Shown here: piece by piece, positions 5,169-27,712 of the stretch | Numbering within the stretch: position 1 is the first letter of the stretch | Layout: each line of letters opens with the position of its first letter | IMG/VR virus record: IMGVR_UViG_3300020045_005277 | Coordinates: 1 to 34,050 of that record | DNA from: a virus | Lineage: Duplodnaviria > Caudoviricetes | Length of the DNA stretch: 34,050 nt | Direction: 5' to 3' (one strand) | The notes under the pieces: model-generated | Seen by the model: only the letters and a program-made list of their open reading frames with translations | What the model was told of the DNA's origin: nothing | The model's database searches: none | Made by a program: the position numbers and the translations under genes

Positions 5169-7635
5169 GGTAGTAATAGTAGAGATACAATACGATACAG
5201 ACATAGCTATTAAGAATGTCAATAACCTTACCGCAGCTATTGAGGGCGAAAAGGTTATGCAAGCTAAGTTAAAAAGTGAGCTGGAAGAAGGTACCATATC
5301 TCAAAATGATTACTCCAAGGCCGTTGAAGAAAGTAAGAATACACAAAGCAAAGCTAATACCGAACGAAAAAACACTATTCAATTACTCAGCTCTGAAAAA
5401 GGCAGCGTAAATGAACTAAAGGCTAACATTAAAACTTTGACCGCTGAACGGGATAAATTGAACTTATCCACGAAAGAAGGTCAAGACAAAGCAAAACTTT
5501 ACAACGCCCAAATAAAAGACATGCAGGCTGCCCTTAAGGGTGCCGGCGAAGAAACAAAAAAAACAGGTGGAGCTTTTGCCACATTGAAAAATGATTTAGG
5601 CAGCATTCAAGGCGCGGCGGGTGGAGTTATTGGAGGTATTCAAGGTATTATAAAAGCTTCTTTGGCTTTTATCGCCACACCTATCGGAGCCTTTATAACG
5701 CTGCTTGTAGGTGCTTTTATGCTTTTGAAGAAAGCGTTCATGGGTACTGAAGAAAACCAGAACAAGCTAAACAAAGTTACTAACATGCTTTCCGGAGCCT
5801 TTAACGCCCTGTTAGCTGTAGTGCGTCCGGTTGCTGAATTTATTTTCGACAAGGCTGTTAAAGCTTTTGAATTTTTAGGCCAAGCGGCTGAAAAGGCTAT
5901 GGGGTTAGTGAGTAAAGGTTTAAAGTTACTTGGATTTAAAGAGGCTGCAGCAGCCGTGGAAAATTTTACTACTAAAATAAAAGATAATGTAAAAGCCTCT
6001 ACCGAATTGGCAGACGCTGAAGCAAAGTTAAAAGAACAGCAAAGGCTTGCGCAAAAAGTGCAATTAGACTATCAGAAACAAGCGGAGAAACTTAGACAGC
6101 TTCGAGATGACGAAGCGAACAGTATATCAGACCGAATGAAGTCTAACGAAAAACTTGGTAAACTTTTAAAAGAACAGTCGAGTGCAGAATTAGCAATTGC
6201 CTATGAAGCTTTGAAAGTTGCTGATTTAAAAATAAAGACTGAAGGTAAAAGTACCGAAAATCTAGATCGCAGAGCAGAGGCATTGACTACAATTAGCGAC
6301 ATCCAAGAACGGATAAGCGGTCAGGAAAGTGAGCAGCTTTCGAACTTAAACGCATTGAGAAAAGAACAACAGGCAGCGGAAAAGACTAGGCTTGATACAA
6401 TAAAAGCAAATGCTGATAAAGAAATTGAAACTAATAAAAAGGTAGCTGAAGAAAAAAAGAAGCTATCAGAGGAAGAAGATAAACGGCGTGGCGATGCAAT
6501 TATAAAGCTGGCTGAGGTAAAGTTTCAGGAGCTGGAACTTGAAACAAAAAGTGCGAAGGATAAGGCAGATTTACAAAAAAAACAGGCTGATGAAGAGCTT
6601 GCAAGGTCGCTAGAAAATACAGCCCTACTACATGAGGAGGTCGATCTATTAAACGAAGAGCACAAGCTCAAATTAGCTGAAATAGATGCAGCTTATCAAG
6701 AACAGGTAAAAGCACAGCATCAGAAAGAATTAGATGACGCATTCGACGGGATGCAACAGATAATTGCTGCTACTCAGGGGATGGGTGACGCAAGGGTTAC
6801 TATTCTTTCGGATACTGTTTCTAAAATTGCTACTATCAATTTTGCGGAATTAAAGAGCAGTAAGGATACCATGGTTGCGATTGGCCAAGCTGCAACAGGA
6901 TTAACAAGCCTGATGACTAGCGGCCACGAAGAGGAGTTAGCAAGTTTCGAAAATGCGAAGGCTGAAGAGTTCGCTACTTTTAAAGCCGATTCAGAGGCTA
7001 GGCTATTGGCGGCGGGTGATGACGCTGACAAAAAAGCGTTAATTGAAGCCGAATTAAAAAAAGAGGAAGAAGCCTTAAATAAAAAGTATTCGGAAAAAGA
7101 GGACGCGATAAAAGAAAAGCAGTTTAAAGATGACAAGGCCAAAGCTGTTATCGATGCTACAATTGCCACTATCTTGGCAGTAACAAAATCACTTCCAAGT
7201 ATCCCGCTATCTATTACTGTAGGTGCTTTGGGTGCTGCTAATATTTTTGCTATTGCAGCCAAACAATACACACCGACAAAGAAATATGCAAAAGGTGGTA
7301 TTATCGGAGGCAATTCGCATGCTAACGGAGGAACCAACTTCTTTGGCTCGGACGGCTCAAGGTTTGAGGCTGAAGCTGGAGAAGCATTATTTGTAATGAA
7401 AAAAGATGCAACTGCTGAAATTGCAGCATTAAGCGCGATTAATGAAAGTTTTGGAGGCCGTTCATGGACTTCAAAACCTAGTTCGCATTTGGCGGATGGT
7501 GGCGAAGCATCTGGAATAAATCTGGATAAGTCAATCAACGAAGCTATTTCACGAACACCTATTTACGTGAGGGTTGCAGACATTGAAACTGGAATGACAG
7601 ACGTAAAGAATGTTAAAAGTGCGGGGGTTATATAA
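5158..7635 (+). CDS. Tape measure protein
   Basis: 825 aa; long Ala/Glu/Lys coiled coil with hydrophobic Gly/Ala segments (ATPIGAFITLLVGAF); C-terminal YAKGGIIGGNSHANGG...EAEAGE. Confidence 0.85.
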   Translation: MADKVVIVEIQYDTDIAIKNVNNLTAAIEGEKVMQAKLKSELEEGTISQNDYSKAVEESKNTQSKANTERKNTIQLLSSEKGSVNELKANIKTLTAERDKLNLSTKEGQDKAKLYNAQIKDMQAALKGAGEETKKTGGAFATLKNDLGSIQGAAGGVIGGIQGIIKASLAFIATPIGAFITLLVGAFMLLKKAFMGTEENQNKLNKVTNMLSGAFNALLAVVRPVAEFIFDKAVKAFEFLGQAAEKAMGLVSKGLKLLGFKEAAAAVENFTTKIKDNVKASTELADAEAKLKEQQRLAQKVQLDYQKQAEKLRQLRDDEANSISDRMKSNEKLGKLLKEQSSAELAIAYEALKVADLKIKTEGKSTENLDRRAEALTTISDIQERISGQESEQLSNLNALRKEQQAAEKTRLDTIKANADKEIETNKKVAEEKKKLSEEEDKRRGDAIIKLAEVKFQELELETKSAKDKADLQKKQADEELARSLENTALLHEEVDLLNEEHKLKLAEIDAAYQEQVKAQHQKELDDAFDGMQQIIAATQGMGDARVTILSDTVSKIATINFAELKSSKDTMVAIGQAATGLTSLMTSGHEEELASFENAKAEEFATFKADSEARLLAAGDDADKKALIEAELKKEEEALNKKYSEKEDAIKEKQFKDDKAKAVIDATIATILAVTKSLPSIPLSITVGALGAANIFAIAAKQYTPTKKYAKGGIIGGNSHANGGTNFFGSDGSRFEAEAGEALFVMKKDATAEIAALSAINESFGGRSWTSKPSSHLADGGEASGINLDKSINEAISRTPIYVRVADIETGMTDVKNVKSAGVI

Positions 7636-7835
7636 TGGCAGCGCGCGAAAAATATATAAAACAGCGGTCAAAATTTTGCAAACTAGCACTTTTGAAACCT
7701 AAAGAAGCCGCTGAAGAATTAAGAGACCTAGCCACAGGTCTGGAAAATTGTAAGAATACAGCTGATATTGTAGAGGCATTGAAAAACATTTTTGCCGTTA
7801 GCGAAAGAACTATTTTTAACGATTTTATTTCGTAA
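7635..7835 (+). CDS. Small protein with a C-terminal HTH-like motif
   Basis: 66 aa, TAATG overlap with the tape measure stop; IVEALKNIFAVSERTIFNDF resembles an HTH recognition helix. Confidence 0.55.
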   Translation: MAAREKYIKQRSKFCKLALLKPKEAAEELRDLATGLENCKNTADIVEALKNIFAVSERTIFNDFIS

Positions 7836-7840
7836 AAGTT

Positions 7841-7882
7841 TTGCAATAATTTGCAATTAATCAAATAATTTTTGTATATTTG
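7841..7882 (+). promoter_or_regulatory. Bacteroidota-type promoter with an overlapping TTGCAA-N4-TTGCAA operator, upstream of the cassette array
   Basis: TTGCAATAATTTGCAA 7841-7856; TTTG 7850-7853; 21-nt spacer; TATATTTG 7875-7882. Confidence 0.7.
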
Positions 7883-7897
7883 TGCATGGTTAAATGT

Positions 7898-8025
7898 GAT
7901 TAATGTTTAAGCTATGCGTAGTTCGGGATTACGTGGTACACATCAAACTACTCAAAGCCTACGAGCGAGGCAGGACGCTCGAATTTAGTAATAAACCCCG
8001 CATTACGTATGAGCGGGTGTTATAA
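7898..8025 (-). repeat. attC-like site 1 (128 bp)
   Basis: Minus strand reads TTATAAC-ACCC-GCTCATAC...GCATAGC-TTAAAC-ATTAATC. Plus-strand stem 7911-7927 pairs with 7997-8014 (14 WC, 2 G:T, 1 mismatch, bulged G8011). Inner hairpin at 7962-7981. Confidence 0.7.
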
Positions 8026-8037
8026 AACGGCTTTATT

Positions 8038-8502
8038 ATGAAAACTTATGTATTGACAGTTTCAAAAACATTCCCGAAAACTCATATAAAATCGGGACAA
8101 AATACTGATTTTGTTAGGCAAATAACAAAACTATTTACAAACGAAAATACCAAAATACATACCATAAGGGTAAATTATGACTTATGGGAAAAACGAGCAA
8201 AAGAAATAAACGAAGGCAAAGCAATTTTATCAATTAGATATTGGAGCGAGAAACCTTATAATTCAAAACAAGTTGAAATTTGCAGACTTGAAAAAATAGG
8301 AGTGCAAAAACTTGTTTTCAAAGAATCTAAATTATTAGGCGAAATTGCAATTGTGCCAGATAAAGATGTTTTTCATTCTTATACAATTGCTGATATTGCT
8401 AAAAATGACGGATTATCATTTGAGGATTTTAAAGAATGGTTTAAAAAATATGACCTAAATAATCCAATGGCAATTATCCATTTTACGCAGTACCGCTATT
8501 AA
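8038..8502 (+). CDS. ASCH/PUA-like domain protein (cassette gene)
   Basis: KIHTIR motif and C-terminal IAKNDGLSFEDFKEWF are typical of the ASCH superfamily; the stop abuts the att box at 8501-8515. Confidence 0.6.
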   Translation: MKTYVLTVSKTFPKTHIKSGQNTDFVRQITKLFTNENTKIHTIRVNYDLWEKRAKEINEGKAILSIRYWSEKPYNSKQVEICRLEKIGVQKLVFKESKLLGEIAIVPDKDVFHSYTIADIAKNDGLSFEDFKEWFKKYDLNNPMAIIHFTQYRY

Positions 8503-8508
8503 GCTGTT

Positions 8509-8637
8509 TTATAACGTTTTGCATAAGACTAGTAGCGGAATAGGAAGCAGTACACTATCAACCGCTAAAAACTTAATTAATTGTACTGTACTAACATACA
8601 CCACTTAAACCGCTATTGGTTTTATGCGGTGTTAGCC
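8509..8637 (-). repeat. attC-like site 2 (129 bp)
   Basis: Plus strand reads TTATAAC-GTTTT-GCATAAGACTAGTAGCGG (8521-8538) ... CCGCTATTGGTTTTATGC (8610-8627)-GGT-GTTAGCC. The stem has 15 WC and 3 G:T pairs; inner stem CAGTACA/TGTACTG. Confidence 0.75.
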
Positions 8638-8676
8638 ACAGTATTTATTTAGTAATCATTTTAAAAACAATAAATT

Positions 8677-9075
8677 ATGGAAAAGATTTAAAGAATTGAA
8701 GAAACTAACTTCAAAACAAAAGAAAGAACTTGGGGCGGTTACGATGGCTACCAAATAATAACAGACCAACAAACAATACAAATTGGGATTTCCGATGGGC
8801 AATGTTGTTGTGAAAACTTTGGTTGCATAATTACAAATGATGAAACCAAAGAGTTTATCGGTGCTGAATTACTTGGTATTTCAATTACAGATACTGCATT
8901 AAACAACAAAAAAAATGAAGAATTAGAATACTTAGATTGTGGCGGTGCAATGTTTGTGAACTTGGAAACAAGCGAAGGTTTATTGCAATTTGTAGCATAC
9001 AATTCTCATAATGGATATTACGGACATGAAGCTGTTTTAGTTAGCAAACAACTTAACTGCGAGGAAGGTCTTTAA
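8677..9075 (+). pseudogene. Cassette gene for a phage-type hypothetical protein (QCCCE...HNGYYGH), interrupted by TAA at codon 5
   Basis: MEKI*RIEETNF...ISDGQCCCENFG...FVAYNSHNGYYGHEAVLVSKQLNCEEGL*. In-frame TAA at 8689-8691, otherwise open to 9075, where the stop overlaps the att box. Confidence 0.7.
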
Positions 9076-9103
9076 TATTGTGGCTAACAAGTCGATAATC
9101 ACA
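9074..9103 (-). other. attI-like simple site (right junction of the array)
   Basis: Minus strand GATTATC-GACTT-GTTAGCC: degenerate L box, 5-bp spacer, GTTRR-type R box; no hairpin follows. Confidence 0.6.
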
Positions 9104-9174
9104 ATCCTCATAACTAACTATTACTCAATACCAGTTAAAAATTTTTCACGACTAAAATATAATCGCAACTAAAT

Positions 9175-9417
9175 ATGCCTAAAGCAGTAACATCCATAGA
9201 TATAACTAAAAGATTTTGCGAAATAGTGCAAAATAATGAACTGGACATAAGTGACGAAGTGAAAATTATTGAACTGATGACTTCGAAATATAATTTTCAA
9301 ACAGTTTAGAATTGTGCCAAAAGTAAAAATATGAGTTATAATGGCGTTATAAAACAAGTAGAAGCTGAGAAAATTCCAACTTTGACAATCGGCGAAGTTT
9401 TATTTTGCTTTATGTAA
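9175..9417 (+). pseudogene. Small HTH/excisionase-like protein with an in-frame TAG
   Basis: MPKAVTS...YNFQTV*NCAKSKNMSYNGVIKQVEAEKIPTLTIGEVLFCFM; TAG at 9307-9309; the C-terminal half resembles a winged-helix Xis-like fold. Confidence 0.55.
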
Positions 9418-9436: not shown

Positions 9437-9469
9437 AAAGCCTCTACACTTGTAGGGGCTTTTTTTTTT
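9437..9469 (+). terminator. Intrinsic terminator closing the accessory island
   Basis: GCCTCTAC-ACTT-GTAGGGGC hairpin followed by T10. Confidence 0.85.
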
Positions 9470-9484
9470 GCCTTTATTTACATC

Positions 9485-12939: not shown

Positions 12940-13356
12940 ATGGAAAATCAGAATCAAAAAGCACAACAAAAAGCAGCCGAAGAAAAGGCAGCAGCGGAGA
13001 AGTTAGCAGCTGAAAAAGCAGCCGAAGAAAAGGCAGCAGCGGAGAAGTTAGCAGCTGAAAAAGCAGCCGAAGAAAAGGCAGCAGCGGAGACTTCGAAAGT
13101 CGACCCCACCAAGTACGACAAATACACCTCTTTAAAATTCTTGTTTCTTTCGGGTGCAAAGGTTAAAGACGAGGTTAAAAAAGAACTTGAAACTTTGGAA
13201 GCTGAATTAAAACTTTGTGCGGGGGCTAAACCTGTTCGCACAGTTAGGGCAGCTATCAAAAATGAACATTTTCTTTTAGTAGAAGGCGTGCCAGTACCGC
13301 AAGCAATTGAGGCCGCAATAAAGATAGAAGGTTCAGAAAAATACTATTTCGGTTAA
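12940..13356 (+). CDS. Hypothetical protein with Ala/Glu/Lys repeats
   Basis: KAAEEKAAAEKLAAE repeats encoded by a 45-bp tandem repeat. Confidence 0.7.
   Translation: MENQNQKAQQKAAEEKAAAEKLAAEKAAEEKAAAEKLAAEKAAEEKAAAETSKVDPTKYDKYTSLKFLFLSGAKVKDEVKKELETLEAELKLCAGAKPVRTVRAAIKNEHFLLVEGVPVPQAIEAAIKIEGSEKYYFG
12968..13090 (+). repeat. 45-bp perfect tandem repeat, about 2.7 copies
   Basis: AAAAAGCAGCCGAAGAAAAGGCAGCAGCGGAGAAGTTAGCAGCTG at 12968, 13013 and partial at 13058. Confidence 0.9.
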
Positions 13357-19136: not shown

Positions 19137-20199
19137 ATGAAAAACGAAATCGAAAAAATTAACCCTCAAGAATTTGGGTTACAGGAAACAGAAGTTCAAA
19201 CAATTGAACAGGCTTTTGTGCCTAAAATCATTGAGCGTGATAATTTAAAAGTTATTTACGAACAATTAATTACAGGCGAAATCACGCCGGAACTTTGTGC
19301 AGAGGCTAAAAGCTTACGCAATAGATTAGTAAAAGTTCGCACGAGTATTGCGGACATACATAAAAGTCAAAAGGCTTTTTTTTTTAGCGGCTGGTAGATT
19401 TGTTGACGCGTGGAAAAATAAAGAGACTTTGCCTGTAACGCAAATGGAAGAAAGCCTTTCAGAAATTGAAACTCATTACGAACGAATTGAGCAACAGAAA
19501 ATTAAAGAATTGCAAACTTCACGGGCTTTGGAATTATCGGAGTTTGAAGCTGATTTTATACCCGGCAACCTTGGAGAGTTAACAGAACAAGTATGGAGTA
19601 ATTTTTTATTAGGAACCAAAACAGCCTATGAATTAAAAAAGCAAGCTGAAAAAGAAGCACAGGAAAAAGAATTGGAACGAGTAAGAATAGAAAGCTTGCA
19701 CAATGAGCGCACAGTTGAAATTTTAGACTTATGGCAATTTGTTCCTGATGCTGATAAACAAAATAATTTCGGGCTTTATACTCAAAGTTCATGGGTTGCT
19801 TTCCATGCCTATTTGTTAGAAGAGAAACATAACTTTGAATTGGAACAAGAAAGAATTCGAATTGAAAATGAAAACCTTCAAAAGCAGCTAAAAATACAGC
19901 AAGAAAAAGCCGATCAAGAACGCAAGGCGCAGGAAGAAAAGTTAAGATTAGCAAATGCAGAGCGCGAAAAATCAGAAAAGCTTTTAAAAGAAAAAGCCGA
20001 TCAAGAACGCAAGGCGCAGGAAGAAAAGCTTGCAAAGCTTGAATTTGACTTACAAAAAGGTGACGCGGATAAGTTTCAAGATTTAATTAATGACTTGGAA
20101 GTCCTGAAAACAAAGTACTCTTTTAAATCCGAAAAAAACAAAAAGAAGTACTACGATGTTTCTATCCTTTTGGAAAAAATCATAACTCATATAAAGTGA
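19137..20199 (+). pseudogene. Coiled-coil protein split by a one-base frameshift in a T10 run
   Basis: ORFs 19137-19397 and 19348-20199 join as KSQKAFFLAAGRFVD if T10 (19376-19385) is T9. Confidence 0.7.
19901..20028 (+). repeat. 41-bp direct repeat (19901-19941 and 19988-20028)
   Basis: AAGAAAAAGCCGATCAAGAACGCAAGGCGCAGGAAGAAAAG twice, encoding EKADQERKAQEEK. Confidence 0.9.
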
Positions 20200-20282
20200 T
20201 GACACCAAAACACTTTGCACTCGCTTTTATACTTTCTATAATTTTTTGGGCTTTATTTTTATTAACCTTAATAATTTCTTAA
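20199..20282 (+). CDS. 27-aa single-TM peptide
   Basis: MTPKHFALAFILSIIFWALFLLTLIIS; TGATG overlap upstream and TAATG overlap downstream. Confidence 0.55.
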   Translation: MTPKHFALAFILSIIFWALFLLTLIIS

Positions 20283-20686
20283 TGTATACTCTATTTCTAA
20301 TCTTAACGGTGGCAGCTATAATCAGCCAAACCGTACACACGTATTTTGTTTTCGATTCTTTCAGCCGATTGAAAGGCCGGTTAAAACTATTTCAGGCCGT
20401 CGTATTCTGCGGAATTATCTCTGTCGCTATCTTCGGTTTCGTTATCATAAATAAACCAGCCTTGGCGCTGCTTGGTGCCTTCGTGGAGATCGTAATTAAC
20501 ATGTATTACTATGCGCAGGACTTTTTCGAAAATGGAATAAAAGCAGTTAGAGAGCCTTATCAGTTAAAAGCAAAAAGAAACGCTGCCATCTGGAGGTTTT
20601 GGCGAAAAAATTGGGTAGCTATATTTTTTGGGCTGCTTATCCCGATGCTGATTTATATTTTCTCTATCGTAATGAGTGAGTTATGA
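20282..20686 (+). CDS. Multi-pass membrane protein; probable start at ATG 20282
   Basis: About four hydrophobic segments. Confidence 0.7.
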   Translation: MYTLFLILTVAAIISQTVHTYFVFDSFSRLKGRLKLFQAVVFCGIISVAIFGFVIINKPALALLGAFVEIVINMYYYAQDFFENGIKAVREPYQLKAKRNAAIWRFWRKNWVAIFFGLLIPMLIYIFSIVMSEL

Positions 20687-25338: not shown

Positions 25339-26139
25339 ATGGAAAATAAAATTAATCTAAACGAACGCAATAAATCTGGTATATACTGTATACAAAGTAA
25401 AGTAAATAATAAAAAGTATATTGGAAGCTCTTGCAATATATCGAAAAGATACAGAATGCATTTGCACCATTTAAGAGTATTAAGCCATAATAATCAACAT
25501 TTAATTAATCATGTAAAAAAATACGGCATTAAATCACTTTATTTTTATGTTATTGAACTTTGTAATATAGAAAATCTAATTGAAAGAGAACAGTATCACA
25601 TCGACAATAATACTGATCTATTTAATTGCAGAATAATTGCCGACAGAAACGATGGTATTAAATGGACAGAAGAAATGAAACAAAAATTTATAGGGAGAAA
25701 ACATTCAGAAAAAACTAAAGAAAAAATAAGGCAGCTTCATTTAGGGAATACTTATAGATTAGGTAAAAAACTTTCAGAAGAGTCTAAAATAAAAATAGGG
25801 TTAAAATCTAAAGGAAGGGTATTAACTGAGGAAGCTAAATGTAAATTATCAAAAGCTTTAAAGGGTAGGGTTATAAGTGAAAAAACTAAAGATAAATTAT
25901 CGAAAGCTTTAAAAGGTAATAAAAATGGGCTTGGTTCAAAGCATCCGATTGAAAATATGCAAGCTTTTATAGATAAACTTTCTATTCCTGTATTACAATT
26001 CAAAGAAGGTATTTTTATTAAAGAATGGAAGTCAACAATAGAAGCAAGTAGAACTTTAAAAATAAATAGAGGTAATATTCACGCCTGCATTGCAGGTAAA
26101 AGAAAAATAGCAGGAGGGTTTTTATGGAAGAAAAAATGA
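25339..26139 (+). CDS. GIY-YIG homing endonuclease with NUMOD3 repeats and a C-terminal NUMOD1-like HTH
   Basis: SGIYCI...KYIGSS, EREQ, repeated HSEKTKEKI / LSEESKIKI, C-terminal PVLQF...STIEASR...CIAGKRKIAGGFLW; markedly AT-rich. Confidence 0.92.
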   Translation: MENKINLNERNKSGIYCIQSKVNNKKYIGSSCNISKRYRMHLHHLRVLSHNNQHLINHVKKYGIKSLYFYVIELCNIENLIEREQYHIDNNTDLFNCRIIADRNDGIKWTEEMKQKFIGRKHSEKTKEKIRQLHLGNTYRLGKKLSEESKIKIGLKSKGRVLTEEAKCKLSKALKGRVISEKTKDKLSKALKGNKNGLGSKHPIENMQAFIDKLSIPVLQFKEGIFIKEWKSTIEASRTLKINRGNIHACIAGKRKIAGGFLWKKK

Positions 26140-26905: not shown

Positions 26906-27712
26906 ATGAAAACATGCACAATTGACAATCAAGAATTTACATGGGAAACAAACGAAGATTTTTTAAAAATCATAGCTTCGTTCCCAAAATTTTCAATAGG
27001 TGAAAATTTTACAATAGGAAACAACTTCAAGGCTGGATACAACTTCAAGGCTGGAAACGACTTCAAGGCTGGATACAACTTCACGGCTGGAGACCGCTTC
27101 ACGGCTGGATACGACTTCAAGGCTGGAGACGACTTCACGGCTGGATACGACTTCACGGCTGGATACAACTTCACGGCTGGAAACCACTTCACGGCTGGAG
27201 ACGACTTCAAGGCTGGAGACGACTTCACGGCTGGATACGACTTCACGGCTGGAGACCGCTTCAAAGCTAGAGACCGCTTCACGGCTGGAAACGACTTCAC
27301 GGCTGGAGACGACTTCACGGCTGGAGACCGCTTCACGGCTGGAGACGACTTCACGGCTGGAAACGACTTCACGGCTGGAGACCGCTTCACGGCTGGATAC
27401 GACTTCACGGCTGGATACAACTTCACGGCTGGATACGACTTCAAGGCTGGTGACGACTTCACGGCTGGAAATATTCCATTAACTATTTTAAAATCTATAT
27501 CAATCAATGGTTTATATAAATATCATTCAGCCGCCTTAATTTGCAAGGAAGGTATTTATATCATTTTAGGATGTAAATTCCGATTGTTATCTGATTGGGA
27601 ATCTAATTTTTGGAACAATAATGACGAATTCCCAAATGACGGCTCCGAAAAATCTCAAGCCAGATGGAATGCTTTTTTACTTTTAAAATATTTTATCACA
27701 CTTAATTCTTAA
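26906..27712 (+). CDS. Hexapeptide-repeat (beta-solenoid) protein
   Basis: 25 F[TK]AG[DYN][DNRH]-type units plus 2 degenerate ones, with unique N- and C-terminal caps (ILGC..RLLSDWE..FW). Confidence 0.8.
   Translation: MKTCTIDNQEFTWETNEDFLKIIASFPKFSIGENFTIGNNFKAGYNFKAGNDFKAGYNFTAGDRFTAGYDFKAGDDFTAGYDFTAGYNFTAGNHFTAGDDFKAGDDFTAGYDFTAGDRFKARDRFTAGNDFTAGDDFTAGDRFTAGDDFTAGNDFTAGDRFTAGYDFTAGYNFTAGYDFKAGDDFTAGNIPLTILKSISINGLYKYHSAALICKEGIYIILGCKFRLLSDWESNFWNNNDEFPNDGSEKSQARWNAFLLLKYFITLNS
27026..27475 (+). repeat. 18-bp coding tandem repeat, 25 copies
   Basis: Consensus TTC A(C/A)G GCT GGA (G/T/A)AC (G/A/C)(A/G)C. Confidence 0.95.

What the first reader, a model, noticed from the sequence alone, without database searches (positions are those of the whole stretch)
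7895..9103. Phage-borne integron-like cassette array without an integrase
Seen: two genes sit between three recombination-like sites. Gene 8038-8502 is bracketed by GTTATAAAACGGCTT (8019-8033) and AAGCTGTTTTATAAC (8501-8515). Gene 8677-9075 is bracketed by GTTAGCCACAGTATT (8631-8645) and AATATTGTGGCTAAC (9074-9088). Each pair is 14/15 complementary to itself but not to the other pair beyond the GTTA core. The spacers 7898-8025 and 8509-8637 are 128-129 bp hairpins with unrelated sequence but the same architecture (TAAY-6 nt-stem...stem-4 nt-GTTA). Established: this is the signature of integron cassettes, where R'' and R' boxes are complementary within a cassette circle and attC sites are conserved in structure rather than sequence. 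Integrons are mainly described in Proteobacteria chromosomes and plasmids. Inference: a Bacteroidota phage captures 0.6-kb cassettes (7904-8514, 8515-9087) using a host tyrosine recombinase in trans, as a plug-in accessory gene system.
Basis: partly seen in the sequence, partly recalled or inferred. Interest (0 to 1): 0.93.

Follow-up and report, generated by a model that had tools for sequence, protein, structure and literature searches.

The report
Reversed phage cassettes with recombinase-free dock
This bacterial virus carries two gene cassettes that recur with other neighbours in other phages, bounded by integron-like DNA hairpins facing the opposite way to those in host chromosomes, and ending beside a broken copy of a small predicted DNA-binding gene that closes such arrays in many phages, which likely borrow a host recombinase; this copy is likely decaying.

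Summary
The boxes are real (14/15 each) and mark mobile units. Cassette 1 with its upstream hairpin recurs at 96% inside another phage's array, breaking at the AAC triplets. Related phages have this slot empty or filled otherwise. It is not a canonical integron. Arrays of this hairpin family lie beside Xer-like recombinases lacking the IntI domain. Host chromosomes run recombinase-attI-gene-hairpin; phages carry genes the other way, with the docking site downstream. The scan found this system, and its reversed polarity, before on other DNA (40 notes), and phage CALINs are in print (Qi 2023). Not found in my paper or scan look-ups: this array ends at a broken member of a ~75-aa family, predicted to be a winged-helix dimer. 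In 79 of 81 loci that gene follows a docking site plus a TTCAA-N4-TTGAA palindrome. Of 18 near-complete such phages, 15 encode no tyrosine recombinase. Four cultured Cellulophaga phages share the dock with four different last cassettes. The window's copy is likely decaying: stops in gene 2 and the dock gene, a damaged first hairpin. The enzyme, strand and crossover are inferred, not shown.

The parts
7836..9417 (+). Inserted accessory island between a small conserved gene (7635-7835) and the terminator before the Clp-type head protease
   Evidence: L002 and L004 run from the small gene's stop straight to the terminator and protease; L001 and L003 hold other fillings
7850..7882 (+). Likely promoter, TTTG-N21-TATATTTG (Bacteroidota-type consensus recalled, from no call)
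   Evidence: sequence; a sigma-70-like match 7851-7880; function inferred
7898..8025 (+). attC-like hairpin 1, damaged (AAT for AAC and arm changes); travels with gene 1
   Evidence: 24.5 bits on model R1; 96% copy in L043 starts at the TAAC and folds fully
7904..8514 (+). Cassette 1 = hairpin 1 + gene 1 + closing box
   Evidence: 597/620 identity to L043 over 7901-8517 with different cassettes on both sides
8038..8502 (+). Gene 1, 154 aa, ASCH-like by language-model features; function unknown
   Evidence: no Pfam hit; PHROG 8581; Atlas feature score 0.97 to a putative ASCH cluster without a common Pfam family
8509..8637 (+). attC-like hairpin 2
   Evidence: 72.3 bits, E 1.8e-10; arm pairs on the + strand
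8515..9087 (+). Cassette 2 = hairpin 2 + gene 2 + closing box
   Evidence: homology to L006, L038 and one metagenome contig ends at 9088; L006, L007, L013 carry the gene between their own different self-complementary boxes
8677..9075 (+). Gene 2, DUF7448 (PF24240), with an in-frame stop at codon 5
9085..9149 (+). Non-hairpin end of the array: likely a degenerate attI-like dock; the family palindrome is present only as a 3-mismatch version at 9115-9149, not significant alone
   Evidence: 9085 scores 9.6 bits on the dock-type core matrix (rank 21 of 686 YAAC sites) and -6.1 on the recombinase-linked core
9175..9417 (+). Broken dock gene (TAG at codon 45): homolog of the 73-80-aa family that closes such arrays
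   Evidence: tblastn read with X at the stop, 41.5% over 65 aa, E 9e-9 to L164; C-terminal piece to profile A1 E 4e-6; translation
9437..9472 (+). Intrinsic-terminator-like hairpin of the phage backbone
   Evidence: a terminator sits at the same place in L001-L004

Best explanation
The stretch is a two-cassette piece of a Bacteroidota integron-like system built in the phage (reversed) polarity, ending at a degenerate dock and a broken dock gene, whose cassettes were likely moved by a Xer-like tyrosine recombinase supplied in trans and which is likely no longer active in this phage. Shown by comparison: the unit is hairpin + downstream gene + closing box, exchanged at the AAC triplet. Arrays end downstream at a non-hairpin site, followed either by a short recombinase (type A) or by a palindrome and a ~75-aa gene (type B, as here). 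Host chromosomes hold the same hairpins with genes the other way round, behind a related recombinase. Inferred from integron biochemistry (PMC5027507 passages): the hairpin recombines as a folded single strand, here likely the gene-sense strand; excision makes a circle whose two boxes pair; new cassettes enter at the dock, at the promoter-distal end. Inferred: the host's chromosomal recombinase is the likeliest donor enzyme, and a host cassette would land antisense in the phage operon and a phage cassette antisense in the host array, which would keep two pools apart. More weakly inferred (about 0.5): the dock protein binds the palindrome as a dimer; whether it gates or recruits the recombinase or only represses itself is open. 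The island likely arrived as a block.
For: Mobility: L043; cassettes shared by phi19:3 and phi13:2 keep the upstream hairpin and diverge 2 and about 16 nt after the final AAC; four Cellulophaga phages are near-identical from AAC into the dock gene, each with a different last cassette; three unrelated metagenomes cover almost only 7900-9088 at >=85% identity. Structure: 57 sites, 93% of cells paired, 283 compensatory cells against 81 in shuffles, a G.T pair in 56 of 57. Of 156 spacers, 130 have a left spacer 3-4 nt longer than the right and 140 fold better on the gene-sense strand. Type A: 207 cassettes in 309,950 nt upstream against 5 in 428,131 nt downstream of 80 viral recombinases. Type B: 55 cassettes in 148,234 nt upstream against 0 in 192,503 nt downstream; 16 of 16 loci tested have model hits, all 32 upstream and on the sense strand; palindrome in 79 of 81 type B against 2 of 75 type A loci, background 0.06 per 160 nt; 15 of 18 near-complete type B records lack PF00589. 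Host: model hits in 51 of 101 genomes; close recombinase homologs in 39 of 301; genes opposite to the model strand in L259-L261 and L244; 8 of 9 recombinase loci with hits have them on the strand opposite the enzyme (18 loci given); host attI cores resemble type B cores by eye. Dock protein: homodimer score 0.78 against best control 0.00, runs agree 100%, pLDDT 88; the mark was reached by 20 of 30 solved pairs and 1 of 23 single chains.
Against: No recombination, circle or empty-site joint was seen (one search shows none). The window's own dock is weak. The stops could not be checked, because no source run holds the stretch. In four Cellulophaga phages a 418-428-aa prophage-type integrase follows the dock gene directly, and such integrases lie near 2 of 81 viral loci, so the small protein may be an ordinary excisionase there. 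The fold match to Xis/RdfS is weak (Z 3.8). The strand bias in folding may partly follow the A-rich sense strand. Hairpin 2-like sites also precede other genes, and gene 1 and 2 homologs carry other hairpins, so hairpin and gene are not permanently linked. The systematic count of which hairpin travels with the gene was not completed; it rests on three pairwise cases and the four-phage dock.
Confidence: 0.72

Rival explanations
1. Same cassettes, but the working enzyme comes from a phage: the short type A recombinase of a co-infecting phage or prophage, or the ~420-aa integrase that follows the dock gene in Cellulophaga phages, with the small protein as its excisionase.
For: 230 viral loci encode a relative of the short recombinase and the best 80 sit behind arrays; 4 of 4 Cellulophaga phages have dock gene then integrase; weak Xis-like fold.
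Against: The window's end scores negative on the type A core matrix; 29 of 35 type B records have no PF00589 match and the six found are 386-422 aa; the genes after the dock gene are mostly unrelated to each other.
Confidence: 0.13
2. An ordinary CALIN: canonical attC cassettes moved by a true IntI, as proposed for phage CALINs by Qi et al. 2023.
For: AAC/GTT core, complementary boxes and stem-loop match attC. Qi et al. recombined one of two Polaribacter phage P12002L sites with IntI1 (PMC9892861), and that phage carries hits to this hairpin model next to its methyltransferase genes.
Against: Linked recombinases lack the IntI-specific domain; the spacer is strongly asymmetric; the gene lies downstream of its hairpin; complete integrons were barely found in Bacteroidetes (PMC9024848 passage).
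Confidence: 0.07
3. Genes are shuffled by homologous or microhomology recombination at the repeated hairpin arms, using the phage's own YqaJ-type recombination genes; the hairpins act as RNA leaders.
For: The window encodes a YqaJ exonuclease; hairpin families recur before different genes; start codons often lie within or just after hairpins.
Against: The four Cellulophaga junctions share only AAC on the cassette side; each cassette's two boxes co-vary across several hundred bases, which matters only in a circle; the same hairpins lie antisense to genes in chromosomes.
Confidence: 0.08

Closest known systems
CALINs in phage genomes (Qi et al. 2023, PMC9892861), including Polaribacter phage P12002L
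   Same: Tandem attC-like sites and small genes in a phage with no integrase; P12002L matches the same hairpin model, all 15 hits at E<=1 on the gene strand.
   Different: That paper (main text read, supplement not) treats the sites as canonical attC for IntI, reports 17 CALINs in 10,705 genomes, and does not describe reversed polarity, a Xer-like enzyme, a downstream dock or a dock gene.
Integrons (IntI, attI, attC cassettes; class 1, Vibrio)
   Same: Cassette logic, AAC/GTT core, boxes complementary within a cassette, structure conserved over sequence, one non-hairpin entry site.
   Different: The enzymes lack the IntI domain; spacer offset is 3-4 nt; a G.T pair is near-invariant; in phages the hairpin precedes its gene and the entry site is promoter-distal.
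Treponema 'reverse' chromosomal integrons (PMC3607928)
   Same: Integrase transcribed toward attI in the direction of the cassette genes, as in the Bacteroidota chromosomal loci L259-L261.
   Different: Treponema has IntI and attC with a protruding G; the phage arrays here are the mirror image of that layout.
Excisionases/RDFs (RdfS, Xis, P2 Cox) and BldC/MerR-type winged helices
   Same: The C-terminal half of the dock protein is a predicted winged helix; top structural rows are RdfS (Z 3.8, rmsd 5.2, 53 aligned) and Pukovnik Xis (Z 3.1, rmsd 2.0, 39 aligned).
   Different: Scores are too low to assign a family; there is an added two-helix predicted dimer module; it is mostly found without an integrase.

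Membership tests
Integron (complete) | Tyrosine recombinase gene in the element | tested here: not met
   No PF00589 match in the 34,050-nt record, rated 90% complete and linear; also none in relatives L003 (91%) and L004 (100%)
Integron (complete) | Integrase carries the IntI-specific additional domain (10.1101/2022.02.06.479319 passage) | tested here: not met
   Phage enzyme: query 173-210 spans VchIntIA 175-260; host enzyme: 163-189 spans 179-247; TIGR02249 157 bits against cut-off 265
Integron cassette (attC) | RYYYAAC / GTTRRRY boxes complementary within the cassette | tested here: met
   14/15 for both; co-varying in homologs
Integron cassette (attC) | Imperfect hairpin conserved in structure | tested here: met
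   Family covariation; window site 2 matches strongly, site 1 is damaged
Integron cassette (attC) | Hairpin lies 3' of its gene; the bottom strand is the folded one | tested here: not met
   In phages the hairpin travels with the downstream gene and the sense strand folds better in 140 of 156; chromosomal arrays do meet the order
Integron cassette (attC) | Extrahelical bases near the L box (PMC5027507) | tested here: inconclusive
   A single bulged base in L043's copy of site 1; none in window site 2; no consistent bulge in the 57-site consensus
Integron cassette (attC) | Recombination of the folded single strand, circular intermediates | not testable with these tools
   Needs the bench; contigs showed no precise excision joint
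CALIN in phage (Qi 2023) | At least two attC-like sites within 3 kb and no IntI | tested here: met
   using my own model
CALIN in phage (Qi 2023) | Detected by IntegronFinder or HattCI + INFERNAL attC models | not testable with these tools
   Those models are not on hand; Rfam gave no family hit on these hairpins
Excisionase/RDF (dock protein) | Winged-helix fold | tested here: inconclusive
   pLDDT 90 model; Foldseek none at E<=0.001; Z<=3.8
Excisionase/RDF (dock protein) | Binds att-site DNA and changes the direction of recombination | not testable with these tools
   Only the association with the palindrome and a predicted dimer

The most novel reading that the evidence does not exclude
Bacteroidota phages carry a portable, recombinase-free docking module: an attI-like site, a palindrome and a small dimeric winged-helix protein that binds it and recruits or gates the host's non-IntI cassette recombinase. 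With it, phages run their own mirror-polarity cassette pool (methyltransferases and other accessory genes) on the host's enzyme, while cassettes that cross between phage and host land silent. This window is a decaying copy.
Probability: 0.35. Interest if true: 0.88.

Novelty: new variant of a known kind. Interest (0 to 1): 0.7.

Why it matters
Integrons were barely detected in Bacteroidetes with IntI-based tools (PMC9024848 passage). Here an integron-like system with an IntI-domain-less enzyme appears in about half of the sampled genomes and in many of their phages, with phage genes built in mirror polarity. If it holds, cassette recombination does not need the IntI domain, and phages without a recombinase can still trade accessory genes site-specifically. 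The dock module and four cultured Cellulophaga baltica phages make the open question raised by phage CALINs, which enzyme fills them and where, directly testable.

Tried and rejected
Rfam: no family fits the window's sites or the hairpins in 7 other loci. An exact search for the window's array end found 0 viral contigs. A third box pair at 19941-20307 has no model hit and is treated as chance. The dock-protein profile was not found in 301 sampled genomes at E<=1e-8, with no positive control in that set, so this shows little; it does occur in the Ferruginibacter MAG locus L039, in a phage-like context. No source run and no certain RNA holder was listed, so the stops and expression are untested. 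Foldseek gave no match for the dock protein. Four of five genome-contig loci of gene 2 were printed (partly cut): L038, L039 and L040 showed no recombinase in the printed part. The all-against-all count of which hairpin travels with a gene was not completed. The supplement of PMC9892861 could not be read, so I cannot say which P12002L sites were assayed, and it may bear on prior description. Not-in-print claim: nine searches listed no paper describing this family, the reversed polarity or the dock gene; the library lacks most subscription papers. Scan look-ups for the dock gene or palindrome returned nothing; one search returned one note on an integrase-less slot without it.

Full report
Setting. 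The window is a whole 34,050-nt linear virus record rated 90% complete. It has terminase, portal, Clp-type head protease, primase-helicase and YqaJ genes. A Bacteroidota host is inferred from relatives of the island's parts (Bacteroidales and Ferruginibacter MAGs; Cellulophaga and Polaribacter phages). It has no tyrosine recombinase.

Observation. The boxes are as stated, 14/15 each. Alone they are only moderately above chance: 3 pairs at >=13/14 against a mean of 0.27 and a maximum of 3 in 30 simulations. Gene 2 has a stop at codon 5. Site 2 folds its arm on the + strand; site 1 does not form its long stem; the third site is not a hairpin.

The slot is variable. Five viral relatives of the protease were found. 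In L002 and L004 the small upstream gene is followed at once by the terminator and protease. L001 has other genes and no such hairpins. L003 has other genes and one cassette of this family. L005 was too short to tell. So 7836-9417 is an inserted island.

The units are mobile. L043 shares 7901-8517 at 597/620, starting at the TAAC before hairpin 1 and ending just after the AAC behind gene 1, inside a longer array of other cassettes. Among 32 viral loci of gene 2, L006, L007 and L013 bracket it with their own, different, self-complementary boxes. Most of the distant homologs have no boxes, so it is a common phage gene that has been put into cassette form in some lineages. Three unrelated metagenomes cover almost only 7900-9088 at >=85% identity, with loose ends at 7900, 8505-8512 and 9088, but also at 8017 and 8634, which shows that hairpin types are shared between cassettes. 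Two cassettes shared by phi19:3 and phi13:2 keep the upstream hairpin and diverge shortly after the final AAC.

The hairpin family. I collected 156 unique spacers between box-defined cassettes. The left spacer is 3-4 nt longer than the right in 130, and the gene-sense strand folds better in 140. I aligned 57 of the 73 listed sites of 100-140 nt, none from the window and not L043's copy of site 1; one (L006) resembles site 2 in its right arm. They pair in 93% of cells with 283 compensatory cells against 81 in shuffles, far above slid controls, and carry a G.T pair in 56 of 57. The structure was derived from this same alignment, which favours it. The model ranks the two window sites first and second. 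Rfam has no such family.

Where arrays end, type A. L007's array ends at a non-hairpin site followed by a 267-aa tyrosine recombinase. Around the best 80 of its 230 viral relatives there are 207 cassettes upstream (309,950 nt) against 5 downstream (428,131 nt), and a conserved core in 73 of 75. The enzyme is closest to XerA among solved structures and lacks about 48 residues of VchIntIA that include the IntI domain.

Where arrays end, type B, as in this window. The ORF at 9175-9417, broken at codon 45, is a homolog of a 73-80-aa family (PHROG 18952; 273 clusters at 50% identity; 119 viral loci, best 80 kept). In 81 loci (those 80 plus L039) there are 55 cassettes upstream and 0 downstream, and in 31 of the 58 with >=700 nt upstream a detected cassette ends within 120 nt of the gene. 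In 79 of 81 the gene follows YAAC-N14-16-TTCAA-N4-TTGAA (<=2 mismatches; background 0.06 per 160 nt), a motif found in only 2 of 75 type A loci. All 32 model hits in 16 of 16 loci tested are upstream and on the sense strand. None of the 81 loci holds a relative of the short recombinase; 2 hold a prophage-type integrase. Of 35 whole type B records, 6 have a PF00589 match, all 386-422 aa; of the 18 at least 90% complete, 15 have none. Four cultured Cellulophaga phages are near-identical from AAC through the palindrome into this gene, each with a different last cassette, and each has 2-4 model hits upstream. Against a simple story: in these four a 418-428-aa integrase follows directly. The protein is predicted as two helices plus a winged helix, weakly like RdfS and Xis, and as a homodimer (0.78 against best control 0.00; 20 of 30 solved pairs and 1 of 23 single chains reach the mark). 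A dimer fits a palindrome, but binding is not shown. The window's own dock is degenerate.

The host side. In the phylum of a Bacteroidales MAG, 51 of 101 genomes have model hits, often in rows, and 39 of 301 have a close recombinase homolog. In L259, L260 and L261 the order is recombinase, non-hairpin site ending in GTTRRRY, gene, hairpin, with the genes on the strand opposite to the model; L244 agrees. In 8 of 9 recombinase loci with hits, out of 18 given, the hits oppose the enzyme's strand; the exception, L127, has the phage layout. The host enzyme tested also lacks the IntI domain. This layout resembles Treponema integrons (PMC3607928 passages). Phage arrays, including P12002L, are its mirror image. 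Host attI cores look like type B cores by eye; I did not score this.

Mechanism. Shown by comparison: cassette boundaries, exchange at AAC, two kinds of array end, opposite polarity in host and phage. Inferred from integron biochemistry (PMC5027507 passages): single-strand hairpin recombination, circles, entry at the dock. Inferred: the enzyme is borrowed, most likely from the host; cross-pool cassettes land antisense; the dock protein binds the palindrome, which lies both next to the core site and just before the start codon, so it may gate recombination, repress itself, or both. The exact cut within AAC cannot be read from sequence. This copy is likely dead or dying: AAT at the first junction, a hairpin 1 that no longer folds, stops in gene 2 and in the dock gene, and a weak dock. 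Assembly error cannot be excluded.

What is known. Phage CALINs, including one in a Bacteroidota phage, are in print (PMC9892861; parts 1-4 of 7 read, that is the main text; supplement unavailable). Of PMC9024848, PMC5027507, PMC8618304, PMC3607928 and 10.1101/2022.02.06.479319 I saw passages only. Nine searches listed nothing on this family (see Tried and rejected). The scan's notes hold the system 40 times and the reversed polarity repeatedly; they are leads, and I tested both points here. I found no note on the dock gene or palindrome. Verdict: it works like an integron cassette array, fails membership on the enzyme and on polarity, and is a new variant of a known kind.

Noticed in passing
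L012, L014, L041 around the gene 2 homolog: By eye the gene lies inside the loop of the hairpin, between its two arms, rather than after it.
   Followed up: no
L025:950-1500 and L031:2930-3450: Gene 2 homologs in GC-richer phages are bracketed by short GTTA.../...TAAC boxes next to different, GC-rich hairpins that do not match model R1: a second, perhaps proteobacterial, phage cassette family.
   Followed up: partly
L001:4390-4800 and L003:3950-4520: The same slot holds other genes separated by a repeated ~60-nt GC-rich inverted-repeat element that is not of the attC-like family.
   Followed up: no
L003:5022-5400: One cassette of the family in the same slot, ending in an attI-like core followed by a short inverted repeat, with no dock gene.
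   Followed up: partly
L258 (Polaribacter phage P12002L 28000-48689): Six model hits at E<0.01, all on the gene strand, several next to DNA methyltransferase and Mom-like genes.
   Followed up: partly
window 26906-27712: 268-aa ORF made largely of a 6-residue repeat (FTAGxx), with GC 0.49 against about 0.37 elsewhere.
   Followed up: no
window 25339-26139: GIY-YIG/NUMOD3 homing endonuclease in a low-GC stretch.
   Followed up: no
window 12940-13356: Protein with an AAEKLAAEK-type low-complexity repeat, just before the portal gene.
   Followed up: no
window 19941-20307: A 13/14 complementary box pair with no hairpin hit; likely chance.
   Followed up: yes
L043:600-769 (-): Group II intron D1-D4 fragment about 2 kb upstream of the cassette array.
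   Followed up: no
L038:3150-3992: Gene 2 shares one cassette with an upstream gene and lacks its own hairpin, yet ends in the same closing box as the window.
   Followed up: no
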